From a virus, in the IMG/VR virus record IMGVR_UViG_3300009151_000031: a DNA stretch of 64,000 nt. One strand, given 5' to 3'. A model generated the notes under the pieces. That model did not search any database, was not told where the DNA came from, and saw only the letters and a program-made list of their open reading frames with translations. Below are positions 1 to 16,011 of this stretch, in pieces. The position numbers and the translations under genes were made by a program. Position 1 is the stretch's first letter. Every line of letters begins with the position of its first letter.

Positions 1-1
1 A

Positions 2-778
2 CAAGAAAAAAATGTCAAGGGATATTTAGTAAAGTGTGGTGACTGGGATATAGATGGTTACGTAAAAAATTATAACATGCCAGAGTTTTTTGCATGGATA
101 CTTAATAATGAATTTAATCGTACCAGATTAGACTATACACACAGTCTGATAGATACTATGACAAAGTCACACAAGTTCCTATTCTTTAACGGAGAGTTCC
201 GCAACAATAGAGAACGCTTCTTTGAATTGTTTAAAGAGGCTGGATTACTTGAATCAAGTATATGGAGTCATAGGTCGGGCAAGAGTGCAGAAGGCTTCGG
301 TCCTGACAAAGATTGGCCGGATCCATTTATACATCCAGACTTTAGATTTTATGCATATTATCCTAGTCATTATTATGACACTAGTATAAGCATTGTGAGT
401 GAAACTACACAAACAGAATTCTTCCCTACGGAAAAGACCTATAAGAGTTTAATGCTAGGACATCCATTTGCTGTGTATGGCGGGCAACATAGTCTACGTA
501 AACTGCAAGCATTAGGATTTGAAACGTTTGGCGATAGCATAGATGAAACGTATGACAACTGCGAGTGGCCAGAAGAACGTGCCAATGTTCTAATAGAAAG
601 TCTAAAAAATTGCAGTATTCCACGACCCAGTAACCATAATAGGCTACAATTTCAGAAAGTGGCTAATTCAGCATACAATCATCTGTTAAATATCTTGCAA
701 GATATAGATAATAATGTTATAATAAAAGAGAACTTTGCAGTCAGTAGTTCTGTTTTGAACAAGTATTTTTTAAATTAA
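2..778 (+). CDS. Hypothetical protein with glycosyltransferase family 10-like C-terminal region (5'-truncated by window)
   Basis: ORF 77..778 stays open in frame back to position 2; motif FFPTEKTYKS...HPFAVYG...GFETF resembles the GT10-like C-terminus common in large phages. Confidence 0.5.
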   Translation, partial: QEKNVKGYLVKCGDWDIDGYVKNYNMPEFFAWILNNEFNRTRLDYTHSLIDTMTKSHKFLFFNGEFRNNRERFFELFKEAGLLESSIWSHRSGKSAEGFGPDKDWPDPFIHPDFRFYAYYPSHYYDTSISIVSETTQTEFFPTEKTYKSLMLGHPFAVYGGQHSLRKLQALGFETFGDSIDETYDNCEWPEERANVLIESLKNCSIPRPSNHNRLQFQKVANSAYNHLLNILQDIDNNVIIKENFAVSSSVLNKYFLN

Positions 779-787
779 AGGATTACA

Positions 788-1015
788 ATGCCACAGTACA
801 TCAGCCGCGGAGCATCAATTGACACAGAAAAATGTGTTGCAGAAGCAGGTGGAAATAGATTTGATTTAGTCATTATGGCCACTCAACGTGCCAGAGAAAT
901 TAAACAACGTAATCAACATAGTGTAAAGCATGAGCATCTACATGGTGTAGTTACAGCACTAATAGAAATACAAGATGGTAATGTAGATCCCAATTGGAAA
1001 CAAAAAGTTCGATGA
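788..1015 (+). CDS. rpoZ: RNA polymerase omega subunit-like protein
   Basis: GNRFDLVIMATQRAREI...VVTALIEIQDG matches omega consensus GNRFDLVLVAARRARQ...ALREIEEG. Confidence 0.85.
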   Translation: MPQYISRGASIDTEKCVAEAGGNRFDLVIMATQRAREIKQRNQHSVKHEHLHGVVTALIEIQDGNVDPNWKQKVR

Positions 1016-1449
1016 AACCAAAGTTTCAACAGCTATATATAACTATAGCAAGTACAGTAGCAACAATGAGTACAGCACGTCGCCTACAAGTTGGTGCTAT
1101 TGTGGTCAAAGATGATCGTGTTATTAGTATGGGCTACAATGGTATGCCTAGTGGGTGGGACAATAATTGCGAAGATGAAATATGTTGGCCCAATGGGGAA
1201 ATAAAGTTTTTAACAACTAAACCGGAGGTACTTCATGCTGAAACTAATGCAATCGCTAAGTTGGCAAGATCAAACGAGTCTGGCCTTGGTGCTACTATGT
1301 TCATTACTCACTCACCTTGCTTGGACTGTGCCAAATTGGTTTACCAATCTGGTATCAATACTGTTTATTATCGCAATAGTTATCGTAACGAAGAAGGCAT
1401 ACAATTCCTGGAAAAAGCAGGAGTAGAAGTAGTAAAATTAGAAGATTAA
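1012..1449 (+). CDS. dCMP deaminase (ComEB-like)
   Basis: HAETNAI and SPCLDC zinc motifs, GYNG; start set at ATG 1012 overlapping the rpoZ stop. Confidence 0.9.
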   Translation: MKPKFQQLYITIASTVATMSTARRLQVGAIVVKDDRVISMGYNGMPSGWDNNCEDEICWPNGEIKFLTTKPEVLHAETNAIAKLARSNESGLGATMFITHSPCLDCAKLVYQSGINTVYYRNSYRNEEGIQFLEKAGVEVVKLED

Positions 1450-1450
1450 C

Positions 1451-1526
1451 GGGGGTGTAGCTCATTTGGGAGAGCGCCTGCTTTGCAAGCAGGATGTAGC
1501 AAGTTCGATCCTTGTCACCTCCACCA
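1451..1526 (+). tRNA. tRNA-Ala (TGC)
   Basis: Cloverleaf: acceptor GGGGGTG/CACCTCC with G3:U70, anticodon arm CCTGC-TTTGCAA-GCAGG, TTCGATC T-loop, encoded CCA. Confidence 0.95.
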
Positions 1527-1532
1527 AAATAA

Positions 1533-1620
1533 GGAAAGTTGGCCGAGTGGTTAAGGCAACGGTTTGCTAAACCGTCGTCCCGAAAGGGGCGCATAGGTTC
1601 GAATCCTATACTTTCCGCCA
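1533..1620 (+). tRNA. tRNA-Ser (GCT)
   Basis: Acceptor GGAAAGT/ACTTTCC, anticodon arm ACGGT-TTGCTAA-ACCGT, long variable arm, TTCGAAT, encoded CCA. Confidence 0.95.
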
Positions 1621-1685
1621 AATTGTATCAAAAAAGTGTAAACGACAATAAATAAGTACATATACACTTACCAGGAGTTTCCCCC

Positions 1686-2651
1686 ATGAGTCAAACACGT
1701 ACAATACGTTGGGTTTTATACCACGAACCAGTTGATTTGTTTTTGCGTACAGCCAAGGCATTCAGCGAAGAAATCGCTCGTACAACCAACGGCCGTTTAG
1801 CAGTTGAAATTTTAACAACACAAGAGTTTGCTGACAAATACAACAAAGATGCTGGCCTAGAACCATTGACTTGGATGCAGTCAGGCGATGCAGAAATGAC
1901 ACAAGTTCAAGTTGTGCATTTAGGTATTTGGCATGCTCCAGAGTTTTTTGCACTGGAATTGCCATTCTTGTTTGATAGTCACGAACATGCTACTCGCGTA
2001 CTAGAAGGAGATATTGGTGAAACTATGCTAGGCGATCTAGATAGCAAGACTCCGGTACACGGTTTAGCATTCACATATTCAGGCGGTTATCGTTGTTTAG
2101 CACTCGACCGTGAAATTAGTAAAGCTGAAGATCTTCAAGGTCTTAAGATGGTGACTAATACAAACCCAGTATCAATTGATACAGCAGAAGCATTTGGATG
2201 CGTTGCAGTACCAGTCAATCTAAAAGAAGCAGTAAACGTTAATAGAAACAACGACAACAATCACAACGGCAACAACGCAATCGAAACAACATTGCCACGT
2301 TATGAAAAAGAAGCCAAGAGTGCAGTACATACACACGTAAGCAATACACGTCACAGCATGTATCTAACAAGTATTTTAATTAGTAAGGACTTCTGGGCAA
2401 GTTTAAGTGCAGAAGATCAAGCGTCTATCAAGGCAGCGGCAATGCACAGTTCTGCATTAGAACGCCATTGGACTGTTAATGATAGTGCCAAGATTGCTAA
2501 CAGCACAGAAGAACAAGCTAAAATGGGCATTAGTTATACTGAGTTTGCTGATAGCGAACGTGCTAAATTAAAAGAATTAGTACAGCCAATGTACAACAAG
2601 TATCGCCAAATCTTTGGCGTTGATCTAGTAGATGGAATTATCAAGGGATAA
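1686..2651 (+). CDS. dctP: TRAP transporter substrate-binding protein (DctP family)
   Basis: TNGRLAVEI, LELPFLFDSHEHA, GGYR, EDLQGLK, SKDFWASLSAEDQ motifs; SD ccaggag upstream. Confidence 0.85.
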   Translation: MSQTRTIRWVLYHEPVDLFLRTAKAFSEEIARTTNGRLAVEILTTQEFADKYNKDAGLEPLTWMQSGDAEMTQVQVVHLGIWHAPEFFALELPFLFDSHEHATRVLEGDIGETMLGDLDSKTPVHGLAFTYSGGYRCLALDREISKAEDLQGLKMVTNTNPVSIDTAEAFGCVAVPVNLKEAVNVNRNNDNNHNGNNAIETTLPRYEKEAKSAVHTHVSNTRHSMYLTSILISKDFWASLSAEDQASIKAAAMHSSALERHWTVNDSAKIANSTEEQAKMGISYTEFADSERAKLKELVQPMYNKYRQIFGVDLVDGIIKG

Positions 2652-3299
2652 ATGAAAGACTTTAGTTTTTCAATTCTTAAAAATAACGAAGTACAAAAAA
2701 TAACATTCCAGGACTTAGCCTTAAACAAGCGAGTCCTGGTTTGCTCTGTTGTCCGTATGCAAACCCATGTTTCGGATTTGTATGTTAAAGAATTAATTAA
2801 GCAAACTACTAGTTACAAACAACAAGGCATTGACGAAGTTTATCTAATAAACTCATGCCATGGACTATTTGCACTTGCAAGATTTGATAAGATATTTCCG
2901 GAAATTACAATGTTAGCAGATACTGATAATCAATTTGTAACGTGGATTAGTAGTACGGTAAACAAAGCTACGCAGACTATAGATAATTTATCAAAGTATT
3001 GGAGTTATCAAGTACTACTGAACAATGGCAAAATAGAGCAATTTTACGAACAGCCAACTGAAAATTATATTAGACATTTAATTAAGGCTGGACACAAACC
3101 AAATTTGGCACACCAAAAGTTTTTTATAACCGAAGGCGACACAGTTGCATTACATCGCCCTGGGTTAAGTAGAGAAGAACAAAATACATTTGGACATTTG
3201 CCATTTGATGGTGCTCGGTGTACTCCGTTGGAGTTTATGTATTTTAATCTTTGTCCAAACACTAAATTAAATCAATATTTGCTTGACACACAGGTGTAA
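2652..3299 (+). CDS. Divergent redoxin/peroxiredoxin-5-like protein
   Basis: N-terminal layout (NKRVLV...GIDEVYLIN...MLAD) resembles Prx5; the peroxidatic PGAFTPTC motif is absent. Confidence 0.45.
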   Translation: MKDFSFSILKNNEVQKITFQDLALNKRVLVCSVVRMQTHVSDLYVKELIKQTTSYKQQGIDEVYLINSCHGLFALARFDKIFPEITMLADTDNQFVTWISSTVNKATQTIDNLSKYWSYQVLLNNGKIEQFYEQPTENYIRHLIKAGHKPNLAHQKFFITEGDTVALHRPGLSREEQNTFGHLPFDGARCTPLEFMYFNLCPNTKLNQYLLDTQV

Positions 3300-3311
3300 C
3301 TAGTATATAAT
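3283..3311 (+). promoter_or_regulatory. sigma70-type promoter
   Basis: TTGACA(3283-3288)-17 nt-TATAAT(3306-3311). Confidence 0.8.
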
Positions 3312-3319
3312 TAATACAA

Positions 3320-3575
3320 GTAATAAGTTTGGGTACATGGTGTGGCGACCATCTGATACATGTGGTAGTCTTAGTAATAGTATGTAACACACGACCCCGT
3401 GGCACTGATACTGCAAAATCGGGTACTCCCGAGGGTACAAGGAATTTTAAAACTATGAACAGGTGCAAGAGTCCATGAAAAAGCCTGTGAAGGCAAGCTA
3501 TTTAGCCGAGTCGCTCTTGGTTAGCATTGTGGTCCACTGTCGAAAAGCAGATTTAGGTGTACCCAAACTTATTAC
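3320..3575 (+). ncRNA. Candidate structured non-coding RNA (~256 nt), family unassigned
   Basis: Perfect 18-bp terminal inverted repeat GTAATAAGTTTGGGTACA/TGTACCCAAACTTATTAC; several internal hairpins; starts just after a consensus promoter and precedes tRNA-Thr. Confidence 0.65.
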
Positions 3576-3590
3576 ATTAAATAGTATTAT

Positions 3591-3666
3591 GCCCTTTTAG
3601 CTCATTTGGTAGAGCAACGCACTTGTAATGCGTAGGTGGTCAGTTCGAATCCGACAAAGGGCACCA
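3591..3666 (+). tRNA. tRNA-Thr (TGT)
   Basis: Acceptor GCCCTTT/AAAGGGC, anticodon arm ACGCA-CTTGTAA-TGCGT, TTCGAAT, encoded CCA. Confidence 0.95.
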
Positions 3667-3681
3667 TTTTAACGAGGATAT

Positions 3682-3858
3682 ATGACAGAAGAAAAGAAAA
3701 GTAAGAATCCTTTTATTAACTTGGCAAATGCCGCAAAAGCGGCGGCCGGAGTACCAAGTACACCTGGATCTAAGACAGCAGAAGTTCAAAAAGCTAAATT
3801 TGGCACACAAGTACAGGGTAACAAACCAGCTAAACGAAGTGCTGGCAGAGGCAGATAA
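3682..3858 (+). CDS. Small basic hypothetical protein (58 aa; not in ORF track)
   Basis: ATG 3682 with GAGGA SD; MTEEKKSKNPFINLANAAK...KRSAGRGR stop TAA. Confidence 0.7.
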   Translation: MTEEKKSKNPFINLANAAKAAAGVPSTPGSKTAEVQKAKFGTQVQGNKPAKRSAGRGR

Positions 3859-3903
3859 GCATAAATAAAGCTATAGAGTACCATACTTGATTTAGGAAAA
3901 ATT

Positions 3904-4446
3904 ATGCACATTATATCATCCACAGATCCTTGGGATTTAACCACACGTCAAATTGATATTGGTTTACTGGTGTCGGCGCTTAACACAGCATCATCGTCAA
4001 CCGGGTCAGCATCTATTCAGATCAACGGAACAACAGTTGCATCTGGGATTGCTGTATCTAATATTGCCGCGAGCAACGAAACAATTGATCCAATTGGTGC
4101 AGATCATGCACAATTGACTATTCACAGCATTTATGCAAATATTTCACGTAACGATGCCACACAAGGTCCTATTACAGTTCGTGTAACTGCCGATGAAGGT
4201 AGTGCGGATTTGTTATGGTGCTATACAGGCTCTAAATCAATACAATATTTTCGTACTGTAAATGGTGTTATAGAATACGGTCCTAGAGGTAACACATTAC
4301 CAAGATTTGACCCAACTCTCGGAACCGTTCAAACTCCAACAGGCGGTGGTGTAGGCAATGTAGAGTTAGGGTATGGATGGAAAACTATTCCTTCAGCTGG
4401 TAGCGTTGTTGTAGATATAACCGGTATTTTAGGTAATATCGCTTAA
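3904..4446 (+). CDS. Hypothetical protein
   Basis: 180-aa ORF, SD aggaaa, ATAAATA motif at 3861, terminator follows. Confidence 0.7.
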   Translation: MHIISSTDPWDLTTRQIDIGLLVSALNTASSSTGSASIQINGTTVASGIAVSNIAASNETIDPIGADHAQLTIHSIYANISRNDATQGPITVRVTADEGSADLLWCYTGSKSIQYFRTVNGVIEYGPRGNTLPRFDPTLGTVQTPTGGGVGNVELGYGWKTIPSAGSVVVDITGILGNIA

Positions 4447-4463
4447 TTACCACATGCCACAAT

Positions 4464-4491
4464 AATCCGCTCTTTTGGGCGGATTTTTTTT
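4464..4491 (+). terminator. Rho-independent terminator
   Basis: AATCCGCTC-TTTT-GGGCGGATT followed by a T-run. Confidence 0.85.
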
Positions 4492-4547
4492 GACCTTTAA
4501 TTCTTTCTATGTTATACTAGATATTAGTTAAACCCTAGGAGTAATAA

Positions 4548-4712
4548 ATGTTTGAATCACTAGAAATCCGCAGAGTTGCAAATGGTTTTATTTTGGTAGT
4601 TAATACCGAAGAAGATGCCACTGAGTTTGTGTACGATACTGAACGCAAATTAATGCGTGTAGTTAAACAGTACCTTGGAGAGCGTGTAAGCAAGGATGAG
4701 TTGGCTGATTAA
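4548..4712 (+). CDS. Small hypothetical protein (54 aa; not in ORF track)
   Basis: TTGACC-17-TATACT promoter (4490-4518), AGGAG SD, MFESLEIRRVANGFILVV...DELAD stop overlapping the next ATG. Confidence 0.7.
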   Translation: MFESLEIRRVANGFILVVNTEEDATEFVYDTERKLMRVVKQYLGERVSKDELAD

Positions 4713-5353
4713 TGAGTATTGCCGATTATTTAACAAATAACCCGGTTGCTAAATTACAACTAGGGTGTGGTGGTAATATGTTGCAGGGCTGGTGCAATAC
4801 CGATGGTCAAAGTGACGGCTGGTATCATCCCAACGGGATCAAGTTAGATGCCAGTAAGCCTTTTCCCGTTGCCGACGATAGTTTTGATTATGTATTCAGC
4901 GAGCACATGATTGAGCATCTTGATTATTGGGCCGGGTACCGTATGCTAGAAGAATCATTTAGGGTAATGAAACCAGGCGCTCGTATTCGTATCAGTTGCC
5001 CGTCAATTGATTTGCTCATGCAAATTTGCGCCGATAAAGAGCATCCTGACCATCGAGCCTACATTGAATTTTTATTAAATGAACCCGACAAAGAGCCTTT
5101 TGTGGATACCATGTTTATCTTTAATAAAATGTTTAGATTTTGTGGGCATACACATATCTATACTAAAACAGGTTTAGTAACTACCATGGAGGCAGTTGGG
5201 TTTGCGGACTTCAGTGAACATAAGATCATTGAAAGCAACGATCCTAACTTGGCAGGATTAGAAAAAGTTTGGCACATGCCTGACTTTGATGGACATAACA
5301 GTCGTATCCTGCAAATGGAAACTATGACAATAGAAGCAGTTAAGCCAAAATAA
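4712..5353 (+). CDS. Class I SAM-dependent methyltransferase
   Basis: LQLGCGG motif I, FDYVFSEHMIEHL, RVMKPGARIRI. Confidence 0.85.
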   Translation: MSIADYLTNNPVAKLQLGCGGNMLQGWCNTDGQSDGWYHPNGIKLDASKPFPVADDSFDYVFSEHMIEHLDYWAGYRMLEESFRVMKPGARIRISCPSIDLLMQICADKEHPDHRAYIEFLLNEPDKEPFVDTMFIFNKMFRFCGHTHIYTKTGLVTTMEAVGFADFSEHKIIESNDPNLAGLEKVWHMPDFDGHNSRILQMETMTIEAVKPK

Positions 5354-5375
5354 AACCGCCCAAAGGCGGTTTTTT
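5352..5375. terminator. Bidirectional intrinsic terminator between convergent genes
   Basis: AAAACCGCC-CAAA-GGCGGTTTTTT. Confidence 0.8.
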
Positions 5376-5389
5376 AATGACTGTAAATG

Positions 5390-6421
5390 TTAACGCTCAA
5401 ACAACTTACGCTCAAAGTTTTCACGTAATTCATCTGCGGTACGATTAGCTTGATACCATTCGATGGTCTTTGCAATGCCATCTTTAAAACTAACAGTAGG
5501 TTGCCAACCTAACCATAGTTTCTGATTAGTAGTATCTGCCGCACGAGCATGTACACCTTCTGGCTTACTACGATCAAAGAAGAAACCATCAGCTGGCTGA
5601 TATCCCATAATGTCACATACTGTTTGGACTGCATCGGCGATCTTGGTAATTTCGCTAGTGCCAATGTTGATACTACGGCAGTCAGTAATGTTTTCACAGG
5701 CTAGTTTTAACCCTTCAACGATATCGCTTACATAGGTAAAGTTACGATCTTGTTGTCCACTGCCCCAAACCTCATACGGGTTTTGTTCTATCATGGCCTT
5801 GGCAATAAACGCAATAATAGCATGACTCTCGTTTTCACGTGGGCCGTATACAGTGAACAGTCGGCAACTTACACCCTTGGTACCATATTGTTTGTGATAC
5901 CCTTTAAGTGCCATTTCACCCATGAACTTGGCCCAGCCATATTCGCCATCGGCCAAGGCGGCACCTTTAGTAAATGGATCGGCCATTTCTTCGCTTAGGT
6001 AACGTTGTTGATCTGGCCCATCTTCTTGTAAGTTAGTTGGGTACGCACAAGCACTTGACGTATATACAACTCGGTCGACATTGTTTAAATGGCTATAGTA
6101 AAATACGTTACCATCGATTAAAAAGTTTTGACTGATCTCGCCTGGGTGTGTTTCAATGAAGCCTCGTCCACCATGGATGTTGGCCAAGTGGAATACAATG
6201 TCTTTATCTCGGGTCACATCTCGAGCAACATTGGCATCCCGTAAATCGCCTAATACAAAATTAATTTGGCCGCGAACTGTTTCGATGTTTTCAATCTTAC
6301 CACTACTTAAATCGTCAACTACAGTAACGTGTGCGCCATCGGCCAATAGGCTTTCAACCAAGAAGCTACCAATAAAACAACAGCCGCCTGTGACTAAAAC
6401 TTTTTTATTTTTAAAAAACAT
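5390..6421 (-). CDS. NAD-dependent epimerase/dehydratase (extended SDR, GDP-mannose-3,5-epimerase-like)
   Basis: TGGCCFIG Rossmann variant, TSSACAYP, YGWAK catalytic YxxxK, WGSGQQDRNFTYV. Confidence 0.85.
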   Translation of the reverse strand: MFFKNKKVLVTGGCCFIGSFLVESLLADGAHVTVVDDLSSGKIENIETVRGQINFVLGDLRDANVARDVTRDKDIVFHLANIHGGRGFIETHPGEISQNFLIDGNVFYYSHLNNVDRVVYTSSACAYPTNLQEDGPDQQRYLSEEMADPFTKGAALADGEYGWAKFMGEMALKGYHKQYGTKGVSCRLFTVYGPRENESHAIIAFIAKAMIEQNPYEVWGSGQQDRNFTYVSDIVEGLKLACENITDCRSINIGTSEITKIADAVQTVCDIMGYQPADGFFFDRSKPEGVHARAADTTNQKLWLGWQPTVSFKDGIAKTIEWYQANRTADELRENFERKLFER

Positions 6422-6430
6422 ATTTTTCCT

Positions 6431-7225
6431 TTATTCGATGGTTACAGCATACAAGCAACTACGACCAGACTGAACAGGTATGTGCCATGCACGTTCTGTT
6501 TCGCAAGTCATCAAGTAGTACTGCCCATCTTTTAATATAAATGCTGTTGGGTCAATGATGTTGTAACGGTTGTCCCAATCAAAATTAACGTTAACAATAT
6601 CAACATTTTGTTTTGACATATCAATGCACCAACCAAATGGTCTATGTCTAATACTATCTCTATTAGATGCATAATTGTCGTGTCCAAATCCTACAACTAA
6701 ATTGTTGCCAATATCTAATCCGTTGCACCCACCACGTAATGTTGAGTAGCTATCCAGTGGTTGTATTTCCGTTGGCAAGTCTTGTGTAAACACTGAGTAT
6801 ACTACATCACCCGCTAACTTTACTACCCTGAATGGAGAAATTTCATGCACAAAATAAATTTCGTCATTGTACACAAACGGTGCCCAATTTTTCCCTGGGC
6901 GTAGATTATCGCCCATATTGATTTGTATGCAATCCCATGTATCATCACTTTTGATATACAACTGCGGTATAAATTTGTTACCGGTAAACCTCACTGAGTA
7001 GCATACCGGGATTCCAAGCAAATCAAACGCTCTAGGATCTTCGCCAGGACCTATTAGGGTACTGCCAATTTTGACCTGCGTATTGAACCAGTCTTGACGA
7101 TTTACATGTCGAGAAAAAGTATGCTCAATGTCATCAACATAACATTGGCTATGGAACACATCAAAAGTTGTTGGAGTAAATTCAAATTGATTAATTATGG
7201 TACAATCAGTAATTGATATTTTCAT
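6431..7225 (-). CDS. Hypothetical protein, possible beta-propeller glycoside hydrolase-like
   Basis: GEDPRAF, KNWAPF, LRGG, IIDPTAF motifs. Confidence 0.45.
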   Translation of the reverse strand: MKISITDCTIINQFEFTPTTFDVFHSQCYVDDIEHTFSRHVNRQDWFNTQVKIGSTLIGPGEDPRAFDLLGIPVCYSVRFTGNKFIPQLYIKSDDTWDCIQINMGDNLRPGKNWAPFVYNDEIYFVHEISPFRVVKLAGDVVYSVFTQDLPTEIQPLDSYSTLRGGCNGLDIGNNLVVGFGHDNYASNRDSIRHRPFGWCIDMSKQNVDIVNVNFDWDNRYNIIDPTAFILKDGQYYLMTCETERAWHIPVQSGRSCLYAVTIE

Positions 7226-7299
7226 TAAGTGTATTTATAATAGCATAAACTATGGCTCGCAAATAATTGAGCCAAACTTGGCTAAAAATAAATACGTAT

Positions 7300-8169
7300 A
7301 TGAAAATCTATGACTGTTTTACGTTTTACAACGAACTCGACTTACTTGAATTTAGACTAGAAGAACTTTATGATCATGTTGATCATTTTGTCCTTGTGGA
7401 AGCAAACACAACATATACCAGCATACCTAAACCATTCTTGTTTGAAGAAAACAAAGAACGTTATGCCCGCTGGATGGATAAAATTATTCATGTTCGAGTG
7501 GAAGACATGCCCATGAATCCAGATGCCTGGGTAAACGACCGATTCCAGCGTGATCAAATTTATCGCGGCATCGCGGATGCTGATCATAATGATTTAATTA
7601 TAGTCAGTGACCTAGATGAAATTATACGCCCAGAAGCAATTGAGTATATGAAACAAAGCGATCAAAGTATATTTGCATTGCGTATGCCCTTGTTTAACTT
7701 CAAATTTAATTACATGAGGTTTAATCCTAATCAATATGATATTTGGGGCATGGCCGGAAGACGTATCTTTTTTGAAGATATCAAACCCGATGCATTTAGA
7801 TTCTTGCGTTTTAATTTTATGGACAAGCCATACCAGTATCAAAATGACGGTTGCGAAGTCATTGAACACGGCGGTTGGCAGTTTAGTAACCTAGGCGACA
7901 ACGAGTTTATGAAAAACAAACTTCGTAGTTTTGCTCATGCTGAAGTAAACTATCCAGAATATCTAGCACAAGTTGATATTGATGCTAGTATTGCCGAAGG
8001 CTTGGGTGTTGGCCGTAAGTTTGAGCAACAGGAATGGAAGCTAGTTGAAATAGACAGCTACTTTCCAAAAACATTGTTAAACAATCTAGACAAATATAAA
8101 AATTACATTTTGGACAATCCGGCAACTACAGCTCTTGCTATATTGCCCAAGTTCCCGTATAATAGTTAA
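7300..8169 (+). CDS. Glycosyltransferase family 17-like
   Basis: IYDCFTFYNELDLLEFRLEELYDHVDHFVLVEAN, FQRD, SDLDEI, GGWQFS, KLRSFAHAE; start set to ATG 7300. Confidence 0.85.
   Translation: MKIYDCFTFYNELDLLEFRLEELYDHVDHFVLVEANTTYTSIPKPFLFEENKERYARWMDKIIHVRVEDMPMNPDAWVNDRFQRDQIYRGIADADHNDLIIVSDLDEIIRPEAIEYMKQSDQSIFALRMPLFNFKFNYMRFNPNQYDIWGMAGRRIFFEDIKPDAFRFLRFNFMDKPYQYQNDGCEVIEHGGWQFSNLGDNEFMKNKLRSFAHAEVNYPEYLAQVDIDASIAEGLGVGRKFEQQEWKLVEIDSYFPKTLLNNLDKYKNYILDNPATTALAILPKFPYNS

Positions 8170-14388: not shown

Positions 14389-16011
<1,623 letters not shown>

What the first reader, a model, noticed from the sequence alone, without database searches (positions are those of the whole stretch)
3283..3590. 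Unassigned ~256-nt structured ncRNA closed by a perfect 18-bp stem, with its own promoter, next to tRNA-Thr
Seen: consensus TTGACA-17-TATAAT places +1 near 3318. 3320-3337 pairs perfectly with 3558-3575. Inside are hairpins ATGGT/ACCAT, GTACTC-CCGA-GGGTAC, GCCT-GTGA-AGGC (GNRA loop) and CTGT/GCAG, and the ORF track has no + strand ORF here. I could not match RNase P, tmRNA, SRP, 6S or group I/II signatures by eye. Inference: a phage-encoded functional RNA, perhaps a protein sponge or a tRNA-linked processed RNA, possibly a new class.
Basis: partly seen in the sequence, partly recalled or inferred. Interest (0 to 1): 0.8.

Follow-up and report, generated by a model that had tools for sequence, protein, structure and literature searches.

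The report
New structured RNA in phage tRNA clusters
The ~257-base stretch is a real non-coding RNA gene with an elaborate conserved fold; it defines a family missing from RNA databases that sits inside the tRNA gene clusters of giant lake phages, and its job is unknown.

Summary
The promoter, closing stem and neighbouring tRNA-Thr are all confirmed. TTGACA-17-TATAAT at 3283-3311 is the only 12/12 promoter match in 8 kb. Bases 3320-3338 pair with 3557-3575, and tRNA-Thr follows at 3591.

The element is not a chance fold. A covariance model found 51 copies (38 distinct) in IMG/VR and lake-metagenome contigs of related T4-like jumbo phages. It occurs once in each of two complete ~355-kb genomes.

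Twelve helices are supported: 96% of cells pair, against about 38% in slid controls. Compensatory changes occur in 41 of 73 pairs. Invariant G·U pairs fix the + strand as the RNA strand.

Rfam 15 gives no match even at E ≤ 10. ARAGORN finds no tmRNA. There is no homology to T4 rnaC/rnaD, and no RT or Ro gene in carrier genomes.

The ancestral position is tRNA-Ser, then the RNA after 0-6 nt, then tRNA-Thr after 13-20 nt. Where a gene cassette or spacer separates it from tRNA-Ser, as here, a strong σ70 promoter sits exactly at the base of P1.

Best reading: a stable trans-acting RNA matured with the tRNAs. Its molecular function is not established.

First readers flagged look-alikes in three other genomes of this scan.

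The parts
3283..3311 (+). Sigma-70-type promoter, TTGACA-17-TATAAT. It predicts a start near 3318, 2 nt before helix P1.
   Evidence: Only 12/12 match in 8 kb. Relatives not abutting a tRNA also carry 9-12/12 promoters, with the -10 box mostly ending 5-9 nt before the model start.
3318..3577 (+). The structured RNA gene (model match). The paired body is 3320-3575.
   Evidence: cmsearch with R1 gives 264 bits. Family alignment is A4.
3320..3338 (+). P1 5' strand. It pairs with 3557-3575: 19 bp here, 21 in the consensus.
   Evidence: 15 of 21 pairs show compensatory changes.
3557..3575 (+). P1 3' strand.
3339..3350 (+). Hairpin H2: GGU/ACC around the hexaloop GUGGCG (consensus letters conserved in at least 90% of the family), stacked on P1.
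   Evidence: All 3 pairs covary: UA/CG/AU and GC/AU.
3351..3365 (+). 5' strands of P3 (3351-3355) and P4 (3358-3360 and 3362-3365, with U3361 bulged), separated by AU.
   Evidence: They pair with 3548-3552 and 3534-3540. P4 pair 3360/3538 occurs as AU, UA, CG and GC. P3 is UUUGG/CCAAA in the distant relative L248.
3377..3381 (+). Px 5' strand (AUAGU). It pairs with 3452-3456 (ACUAU) and encloses the P5-P6-P7 junction.
   Evidence: Found by inspection. All 5 pairs have compensatory changes and 89% of cells pair.
3394..3436 (+). Three-way junction: P5 (3394-3397 with 3433-3436), P6 hairpin (3402-3414), P7 hairpin UCGGG-UACU-CCCGA (3419-3432).
   Evidence: This is the most conserved block and is shared with L248.
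3452..3456 (+). Px 3' strand.
3473..3532 (+). Second domain: P8 (3473-3478 with 3527-3532, with a near-invariant tandem U.G/G.U), P9 GNRA hairpin (3483-3494), P10 (3497-3500 with 3522-3525), P11 hairpin (3505-3521).
   Evidence: All 5 counted P11 pairs covary.
3534..3552 (+). 3' strands of P4 (3534-3540) and P3 (3548-3552), flanking the invariant loop CGAAAAG (3541-3547).
   Evidence: The block GTCCACNGTCGAAAAGCAG is invariant in the first nine members, which were not selected by it.
3576..3590 (+). 15-nt spacer to tRNA-Thr, with no terminator. RNase P cleavage at 3590/3591 would release the RNA's 3' side (inferred).
3591..3666 (+). tRNA-Thr (tgt), the conserved downstream neighbour.
   Evidence: About a dozen loci have it 13-20 nt downstream of the model match.
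1533..1620 (+). tRNA-Ser (gct), the ancestral upstream neighbour. Here it is separated from the RNA by the DctP-like/Prx-like cassette at 1686-3299.
   Evidence: In relatives tRNA-Ser ends 0-6 nt before the RNA. L259 has Ala-Ser-Val-RNA-Thr.
4464..4485 (+). First terminator-like hairpin downstream on the + strand. It is the probable end of the transcription unit that starts at 3318 (inferred).

Best explanation
Window 3318-3577 (+) encodes a member of a previously uncatalogued family of ~255-270-nt, highly structured non-coding RNAs. The family is carried by freshwater T4-like jumbo phages of about 355 kb.

Shown:
- The fold has 12 helices. A 19-21-bp terminal helix P1 and a stacked 3-bp hairpin with a conserved GUGGCG loop lead into P3 and P4, which flank an invariant asymmetric loop (AU opposite CGAAAAG).
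- P4 opens into two domains: Px enclosing a P5/P6/P7 three-way junction, and P8 enclosing a GNRA hairpin and P10/P11.
- The gene lies in the tRNA cluster, ancestrally between tRNA-Ser and tRNA-Thr on the same strand.

Inferred:
- It is transcribed with the tRNAs.
- Its 5' end is set either by 3' processing of the upstream tRNA or, where extra DNA intervenes as in this window, by a strong sigma-70 promoter placed at the base of P1.
- Its 3' end is set by RNase P cutting at the 5' end of tRNA-Thr, followed by exonuclease trimming back to P1. P1 seals both ends and makes the RNA stable.

Inferred, weakest step:
- The mature RNA acts in trans through its three-dimensional fold, as a binding platform or decoy for a protein, a tRNA or the ribosome.
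- This would parallel the other stable RNAs of phage tRNA islands. It is not read as an antisense regulator or as a cis-regulatory leader.
For: Family and structure:
- 51 matches (38 distinct) at 160-303 bits.
- 96.3% of cells pair, against 36-40% when partners are slid.
- 41 of 73 pairs have compensatory changes, and 0/500 shuffles reach the covariation score.

Strand:
- (Near-)invariant G.U pairs in P8, and common ones in P5, P11 and P1, would be A.C on the other strand.

Not coding:
- No conserved frame exists, and indels are not in multiples of three.

Context:
- tRNA-Ser lies 0-6 nt upstream in about 16 of the 46 listed loci. tRNA-Thr lies 13-20 nt downstream in about a dozen, always on the same strand.
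- The order is kept in complete genome G006 even with genes inserted.
- Promoters scoring 9-12/12 appear where no tRNA abuts, mostly ending 5-9 nt before the model start.
- There is no terminator between the RNA and tRNA-Thr.

Distribution:
- One copy per genome.
- A shorter relative with the same core lies in the tRNA cluster of a phage whose gp41 is only 29% identical.

Precedent:
- ROOL and GOLLD lie near phage tRNA islands (PMC12286853).
- T4 rnaC and rnaD are annotated next to tRNA-Arg.
Against: - No transcript data exist. The ends, stability and abundance are all inferred.
- No partner has been identified.
- No carrier genome gene was found to co-occur specifically with the RNA.
- P1 is much shorter (about 6-7 bp) in the distant relative L248, so a long sealing helix is not universal.
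- High sequence conservation of P1 and of several loops is not explained by end protection alone.
- The related genome G001 (gp41 82% identical, about 80% complete) has no copy, so the RNA is dispensable for some close relatives.
Confidence: 0.6

Rival explanations
1. It is a cis-acting processing cassette. The long terminal helix would be an RNase III site, like the stems flanking 16S and 23S rRNA. The element's only role would be to separate and mature the flanking tRNAs or to punctuate the operon, and the excised piece would be waste.
For: - A 19-21-bp perfect or near-perfect helix lies directly between two tRNAs.
- First-reader notes report other AT-rich long-stem elements in the same tRNA region (unchecked).
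Against: - Twelve covarying helices, invariant loops (GUGGCG, UACU, CGAAAAG), a conserved tandem G.U and an optional GNRA hairpin are far more than a cleavage signal needs.
- The element keeps its fold when it has its own promoter and no upstream tRNA.
- L248 keeps the core but has only a short P1.
Confidence: 0.12
2. It is a ribozyme or tRNA-handling RNA of a new class. It might dock tRNA or pre-tRNA, for instance with the conserved UGGC of the hexaloop pairing with a 3' GCCA end as T-box RNAs and RNase P do. It would then process, protect or sense the phage's own tRNAs.
For: - The size, multi-domain fold and invariant internal loops are typical of ribozymes and aptamers.
- It lives exclusively in tRNA clusters of two very distant phage lineages.
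- The GUGGCG loop is complementary to the CGCCA 3' end seen on the upstream tRNA-Ser in relatives. That complementarity is my own inference.
Against: - No similarity to RNase P, T-box or any ribozyme model.
- The hexaloop hairpin is not recognisable in L248.
- There is no covariation test for an intermolecular pairing.
- The idea rests on a 5-nt complementarity.
Confidence: 0.15
3. It is a cis-regulatory leader, such as a riboswitch or attenuator, for the downstream gene.
For: It lies upstream of tRNA-Thr, or of a DctP-like gene, on the same strand.
Against: - The downstream gene differs between members.
- DctP-like genes carry their own ATAAATA box between the RNA and their start codon.
- P1 closes the whole element, and no alternative terminator or anti-terminator is conserved.
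- In many members the RNA begins right after a tRNA.
Confidence: 0.04
4. It is a divergent member of a known RNA family: RNase P RNA, tmRNA, 6S, SRP RNA, Y RNA or a retron msr-msd.
For: - Its size, the closing helix and its tRNA neighbourhood recall these families.
- Other first readers noted an 'RNase-P-like outer architecture' (unchecked).
- Phages do place tmRNA next to tRNA-Thr, as in phage Marzo.
Against: - No Rfam family reaches even E <= 10 in three divergent members, apart from unrelated chance hits.
- ARAGORN finds no tmRNA, and there is no T-arm, CCA end or tag frame.
- The helix order does not allow the RNase P P4 pseudoknot; only 4-6 nt separate P3 3' from P1 3'.
- No RVT_1 or TROVE gene in five carrier records, two of them complete.
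- The model does not hit the Marzo tmRNA or T4 rnaC/rnaD.
Confidence: 0.04
5. It is a DNA-level element, a MITE-like insertion with terminal inverted repeats, and not an RNA gene.
For: It has 19-bp terminal inverted repeats and lies in a region with inserted cassettes.
Against: - It is single copy per genome and holds a fixed position between tRNA-Ser and tRNA-Thr.
- Compensatory changes run throughout the interior.
- Strand-specific G.U pairs are present.
- Promoters are positioned at its 5' end.
Confidence: 0.02

Closest known systems
T4 stable RNAs, species 1 and 2 (rnaC, rnaD)
   Same: Both are small stable non-coding RNAs of unknown function, encoded on the same strand inside the tRNA gene cluster of a T4-type phage and abutting a tRNA. 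That they are released by tRNA-processing enzymes is established for T4 from my own knowledge and only inferred here.
   Different: - No sequence or structure homology: the model scores below 10 bits on the T4 region with filters off.
- The T4 RNAs are 119-139 nt, and rnaC ends in a tRNA-like T-arm.
- This RNA is about 257 nt, has no tRNA-like module and has a long closing helix.
ROOL and GOLLD large phage RNAs
   Same: Both are ornate, covariation-supported RNAs of unknown function encoded by phages, often near tRNA islands (PMC12286853). Both were discovered from metagenomes.
   Different: - ROOL and GOLLD are much larger, with many GOLLD members over 800 nt, and form RNA-only nanocages.
- Neither Rfam model matches here.
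- The UUUUAAAA stretch in this RNA is not kept as a palindrome across members, so no self-pairing site is evident.
Phage-encoded (permuted) tmRNA in tRNA clusters, e.g. Stenotrophomonas phage Marzo
   Same: It has the same kind of location: a 300-nt-class RNA gene between two tRNAs, directly upstream of tRNA-Thr.
   Different: tmRNA has an acceptor/T-arm module, a CCA end and a tag reading frame. None of these is present here, and the model does not match the Marzo locus.
Bacterial RNase P RNA
   Same: It is a multi-domain RNA closed by pairing of its 5' and 3' ends and is functionally tied to tRNAs.
   Different: - No match to any RNase P model.
- The helix order differs, with a hairpin before rather than after the second helix.
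- There is no room for the P4 pseudoknot, and the RNA is about 100 nt shorter than the bacterial types.

Membership tests
RNase P RNA (Rfam RF00010, RF00011, RF00373, RF02357) | Match to a family covariance model | tested here: not met
   No hit at E <= 10 in window 3200-3700, L248 or L182.
RNase P RNA | P4 pseudoknot formed by CR-I and CR-V between P2 3' and P1 3' | tested here: not met
   Only 4-6 nt (UUUA) lie between P3 3' and P1 3'. No long-range covarying pair beyond the nested helices was seen.
tmRNA | tRNA-like acceptor and T-arm with 3' CCA, plus a tag reading frame | tested here: not met
   ARAGORN finds none. No Rfam tmRNA hit. No GGUUCGA-type T-arm or CCA end in 3318-3577.
6S RNA / SRP RNA | Match to a family covariance model: rod with central bubble for 6S, helix 8 motif for SRP | tested here: not met
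   No hits. The fold is multi-branched, not a rod.
Y RNA / YrlA | Ro60 (TROVE) partner and a Ro-binding stem with a tRNA-like module | tested here: not met
   No TROVE domain in five carrier records, two of them complete; the control genomes gave hits. No Rfam hit. A host-encoded Ro protein could not be tested.
Retron msr-msd / DRT ncRNA | Adjacent or same-genome reverse transcriptase | tested here: not met
   No RVT_1 in five carrier records; the control genomes gave hits. The neighbours are tRNAs.
T4 rnaC / rnaD | Sequence or structure homology to the T4 RNAs | tested here: not met
   Best score 9.8 bits, hairpins only, with filters off on T4 66000-76000.
T4 rnaC / rnaD (works-like) | Same-strand gene inside a phage tRNA cluster, abutting tRNAs | tested here: met
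ROOL / GOLLD | Match to Rfam models; RNA well above this size (many GOLLD over 800 nt) | tested here: not met
   No hit in the window or in 12 related loci totalling 143 kb. Length here is 255-274 nt.
Structured RNA gene (general) | Compensatory base-pair changes above controls, strand-specific G.U pairs, no conserved ORF | tested here: met
Stable processed transcript | Discrete RNA species with defined ends in infected cells | not testable with these tools
No cultured host is known.

The most novel reading that the evidence does not exclude
This is a new class of catalytic or tRNA/ribosome-docking RNA that giant phages carry alongside their near-complete tRNA sets. Examples would be an RNA that captures or shields tRNA 3' ends, or one that decoys a host tRNA-targeting defence nuclease. 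That would make it a phage-encoded RNA component of the translation or anti-defence machinery with no known homologue.
Probability: 0.2. Interest if true: 0.9.

Novelty: new variant of a known kind. Interest (0 to 1): 0.7.

Why it matters
Structured RNAs of this size and complexity, with 12 covarying helices and invariant loops, are rare. Historically they have turned out to be ribozymes, riboswitch-like sensors or cores of ribonucleoproteins.

This one is confined to tRNA gene clusters of giant phages that encode nearly a full tRNA set. The same genomic niche holds T4 RNAs C and D, ROOL and GOLLD, whose functions remain unsolved.

A compact member of about 257 nt with a clean alignment and a defined structure is a tractable entry point. 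It suits cryo-EM, pull-downs and processing assays aimed at finding out why phages keep such RNAs next to their tRNAs.

Tried and rejected
- BLAST of 3200-3700 and 1-8000 against GenBank phages found only the tRNAs.
- Searches of IMG/VR with the two proteins nearest the RNA (2652-3299 and 3904-4446) found no relatives.
- DNA and model searches of five large relatives chosen through gp41 (G001-G005) found nothing.
- Of 80 dCMP-deaminase loci, only one (L105) held the RNA.
- All nine pattern hits in 185,579 bacterial and archaeal species genomes were chance matches and did not match the model. This test sees only an exact 18-nt block.
- L249 and 12 of the 13 new loci from a relaxed junction pattern were chance matches; only L259 was a member.
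- The Marzo 'tmRNA' lead turned out to be a genuine, unrelated permuted tmRNA.
- A palindromic dimerisation site at UUUUAAAA was rejected, because variants break the symmetry without compensation.
- A kissing interaction between the P11 loop and the tRNA-Ser anticodon was rejected, because the loop variants are inconsistent with it (my own comparison of the loop variants).
- Resemblance of the GAAAGCGU and AGCAG stretches to the 23S GTPase-centre sequence, which I compared from memory, was rejected. The order differs and the window itself lacks the first motif.
- Pfam and PHROGs gave nothing for the two downstream ORFs, 3682-3858 and 3904-4446.
- A mutual-information scan for extra long-range or pseudoknot pairs gave only scattered weak candidates.

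Full report
**What is in the sequence**

Window 3283-3311 reads TTGACA, 17 nt, TATAAT. It is the only 12/12 promoter match in the first 8 kb, where the total number of promoter-like sites is no higher than in shuffles. Bases 3320-3337 are the exact reverse complement of 3558-3575. With a U.G pair the helix reaches 19 bp, 3320-3338 with 3557-3575.

tRNA-Thr(tgt) follows at 3591-3666. The upstream ORF ends at 3299, and the short ORFs inside the stretch are not conserved. The single sequence folds to -81.1 kcal/mol, z = -3.4 against dinucleotide shuffles.

**The source genome**

The window comes from a large T4-like phage. It carries a gp41-type helicase, a UvsW-like helicase, GroEL, NrdA and dCMP deaminase. 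No GenBank phage shares the element; only the tRNAs match.

**Finding relatives**

- The two flanking proteins found nothing in IMG/VR.
- The gp41 helicase found hundreds of relatives, but five long ones lacked the element.
- One of 80 loci retrieved through dCMP deaminase (L105) carried a 78%-identical copy with the same promoter position and a downstream tRNA-Thr.
- Exact searches with two invariant blocks then gave 13 IMG/VR loci and 53 metagenome loci.
- A covariance model built from 12 sequences (R1) confirmed 51 copies, 38 of them distinct, at 160-303 bits.
- The model rejected all nine pattern hits from 185,579 bacterial and archaeal genomes.
- Two complete genomes (356,865 and 354,429 bp) and three partial ones each hold exactly one copy.
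- Carrier genomes have gp41 proteins 73-86% identical to the window's.

**Structure**

On the 38 distinct sequences, 96.8% of cells in the RNAalifold-derived structure form standard pairs, against 36-41% when partners are slid by 1-3 columns. Of 68 pairs, 36 show compensatory double changes, and no shuffle in 500 reaches the observed covariation score.

Inspection of the unassigned regions revealed a further helix, Px (window 3377-3381 with 3452-3456). It switches between ACAGU/ACUGU, ACGAU/AUCGU, ACGGU/ACCGU, UUGGC/GCCAA, GUAGU/ACUAC and AUAGU/ACUAU. All five of its pairs carry compensatory changes. The total is then 41 of 73 pairs in 12 helices.

The architecture has three parts:
- **Stem.** P1 is followed by a 3-bp hairpin with a conserved GUGGCG loop. 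P3 and P4 come next, flanking an invariant AU/CGAAAAG internal loop.
- **Domain 1.** Px encloses a three-way junction of P5, P6 and P7, with an invariant UACU loop on P7.
- **Domain 2.** P8 carries a near-invariant tandem U.G/G.U and encloses a GNRA hairpin (P9) and P10/P11.

Some members insert an extra GCAA-capped hairpin after Px. These include L236, which is otherwise nearly identical to the window in its flanks.

The many conserved G.U pairs would be A.C on the opposite strand, so the + strand is the RNA strand. No reading frame is conserved; the window has stops in all six frames.

Two of its local hairpins are superseded by covarying alternatives, and ATGGT/ACCAT survives only as its inner 3 bp.

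**Context**

- The upstream neighbour is tRNA-Ser, ending 0-6 nt before the model start in about 16 of the 46 listed loci. One locus (L259) has tRNA-Val there instead.
- The downstream neighbour is tRNA-Thr(tgt), 13-20 nt after the model end in about a dozen loci.
- All of these lie on the same strand.
- In complete genome G006 the order Ser, RNA, Thr persists with protein genes inserted on both sides.
- In the window, tRNA-Ala and tRNA-Ser (1451-1620) are followed by a DctP-like/Prx-like cassette (1686-3299), then the RNA.
- Where the RNA does not abut a tRNA, a sigma-70-like promoter scoring 9-12/12 is present, with its -10 box mostly ending 5-9 nt before the model start. L225 and L171 squeeze one into a 40-nt gap after tRNA-Ser.
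- No terminator lies between the RNA and tRNA-Thr.
- When a DctP-like gene follows instead, it has its own ATAAATA box.

**A distant relative**

L248 (27 bits, E about 1e-8) lies between tRNA-Tyr and tRNA-Ala in a 15-tRNA cluster. Its phage has a gp41 only 29% identical to the window's.
- It is about 195 nt long with a short P1.
- It keeps P3 (fully covaried to UUUGG/CCAAA) and GAUAC opposite GUUGAAAAG.
- It also keeps Px (AAGAAC/GUUCUU) and the CCCCGUG ... UCGGAUACUUCCGAGGGUA junction.

The core is thus older or more mobile than the jumbo-phage clade, and again lives among tRNAs.

**What it is not**

- Rfam 15 gives nothing at gathering score in the window or in 143 kb of related loci except tRNAs.
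- At E <= 10 it gives only unrelated chance hits for the window copy, L182 and L248.
- ARAGORN finds no tmRNA.
- The model scores under 10 bits on the T4 rnaC/rnaD region. It does not score at all on the genuine permuted tmRNA that phage Marzo carries next to its tRNA-Thr.
- Carrier genomes encode no RVT_1 or TROVE protein, while the control genomes gave hits. That argues against a retron-like RNA or a phage-encoded Ro/Y pair.
- The helix order leaves no room for the RNase P P4 pseudoknot.
- Literature searches found no description of this RNA.

**Most likely mechanism**

Shown: this is a conserved, single-copy, strand-specific, multi-domain RNA gene embedded in a phage tRNA operon.

Inferred from gene layout and from general knowledge of tRNA operon maturation:
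- The RNA is co-transcribed with the tRNAs.
- Its ends are produced by the TSS or by upstream tRNA 3' processing, and by RNase P cleavage at tRNA-Thr followed by trimming.
- P1 protects the ends, giving a stable RNA.

Inferred with low certainty: it acts in trans through its fold as a binding platform or decoy. This resembles what is suspected for T4 RNAs C and D and for ROOL and GOLLD, which also sit near phage tRNA islands (PMC12286853).

A more specific idea is that the UGGC of the hexaloop pairs with GCCA 3' ends of tRNAs. This is only a lead: the hairpin is not recognisable in L248, and no test was possible.

**Limits**

- No expression data could be obtained.
- The search for members relied on exact seed patterns, so the family's breadth is a lower bound.
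- The host is unknown.

**Earlier notes in this scan**

First readers independently flagged look-alike elements in three other genomes. One was described as lying between tRNA-Ser and tRNA-Thr, which matches what I found. One suggested RNase-P-like architecture, which my tests do not support.

Noticed in passing
window 788-1015 (+): A 75-aa ORF matches the RNA polymerase omega/Rpb6 family (Pfam PF01192, E 8e-9). It sits in the tRNA region of a phage.
   Followed up: partly
window 1686-3299 (+): A DctP family-7 solute-binding protein (E 8e-35) is followed by a PHROG 2281 peroxiredoxin-like ORF. The cassette is inserted exactly where relatives have 0-6 nt between tRNA-Ser and the RNA. In relatives a homologous gene follows the RNA behind an ATAAATA box.
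   Followed up: partly
L236:103-371 (-) versus window 3318-3577: A near-identical relative with the same promoter and flanks carries an extra GNRA-capped hairpin (GUAGA-GCAA-UCUAC) after the Px 5' strand. This shows a modular peripheral insertion between close kin.
   Followed up: partly
L208:272-528 (-): This copy lacks the 3' strand of P1 through a deletion, so it may be decaying.
   Followed up: no
L263 (MZ326868.1 70994-71368): Stenotrophomonas phage Marzo carries a genuine permuted two-piece tmRNA between tRNA-Leu and tRNA-Thr. The acceptor piece ends in CCA and is followed by the coding piece with a tag frame. It is unrelated to the RNA studied here.
   Followed up: yes
L242, L221, L171, L181, L198 and others, upstream tRNA-Ser: ARAGORN assigns anticodon 'act' (A34) to the tRNA-Ser preceding the RNA in many relatives. 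That is unusual, and it may be a miscall or a modified wobble base.
   Followed up: no
window 3576-3590 and the equivalent spacers in L204, L200, L242, L212, L202: The short spacer between the RNA and tRNA-Thr keeps the motif UAAAUAG (one locus, L202, has UAAAUAU). It could be a processing site or a weak late-promoter-like box.
   Followed up: no
L242, L225, L221, L209, L174, L172 and others, minus strand of the RNA: About a third of members have a stop-free antisense frame of 85-88 codons across the RNA. The window and many others have stops in every frame, so I read this as a by-product of composition.
   Followed up: partly
same genome, outside this window (first-reader notes): Notes report further candidate structured RNAs in the same tRNA region: a ~350-nt element upstream of tRNA-Tyr, a tRNA-like RNA, and 85-110-nt elements with AT-rich terminal stems. 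A ~530-nt element lies elsewhere in the genome. I did not examine any of them.
   Followed up: no
window 14392-16011 (+): A full-length GroEL homologue (PHROG 5725, E 2e-179) is encoded by the phage.
   Followed up: no
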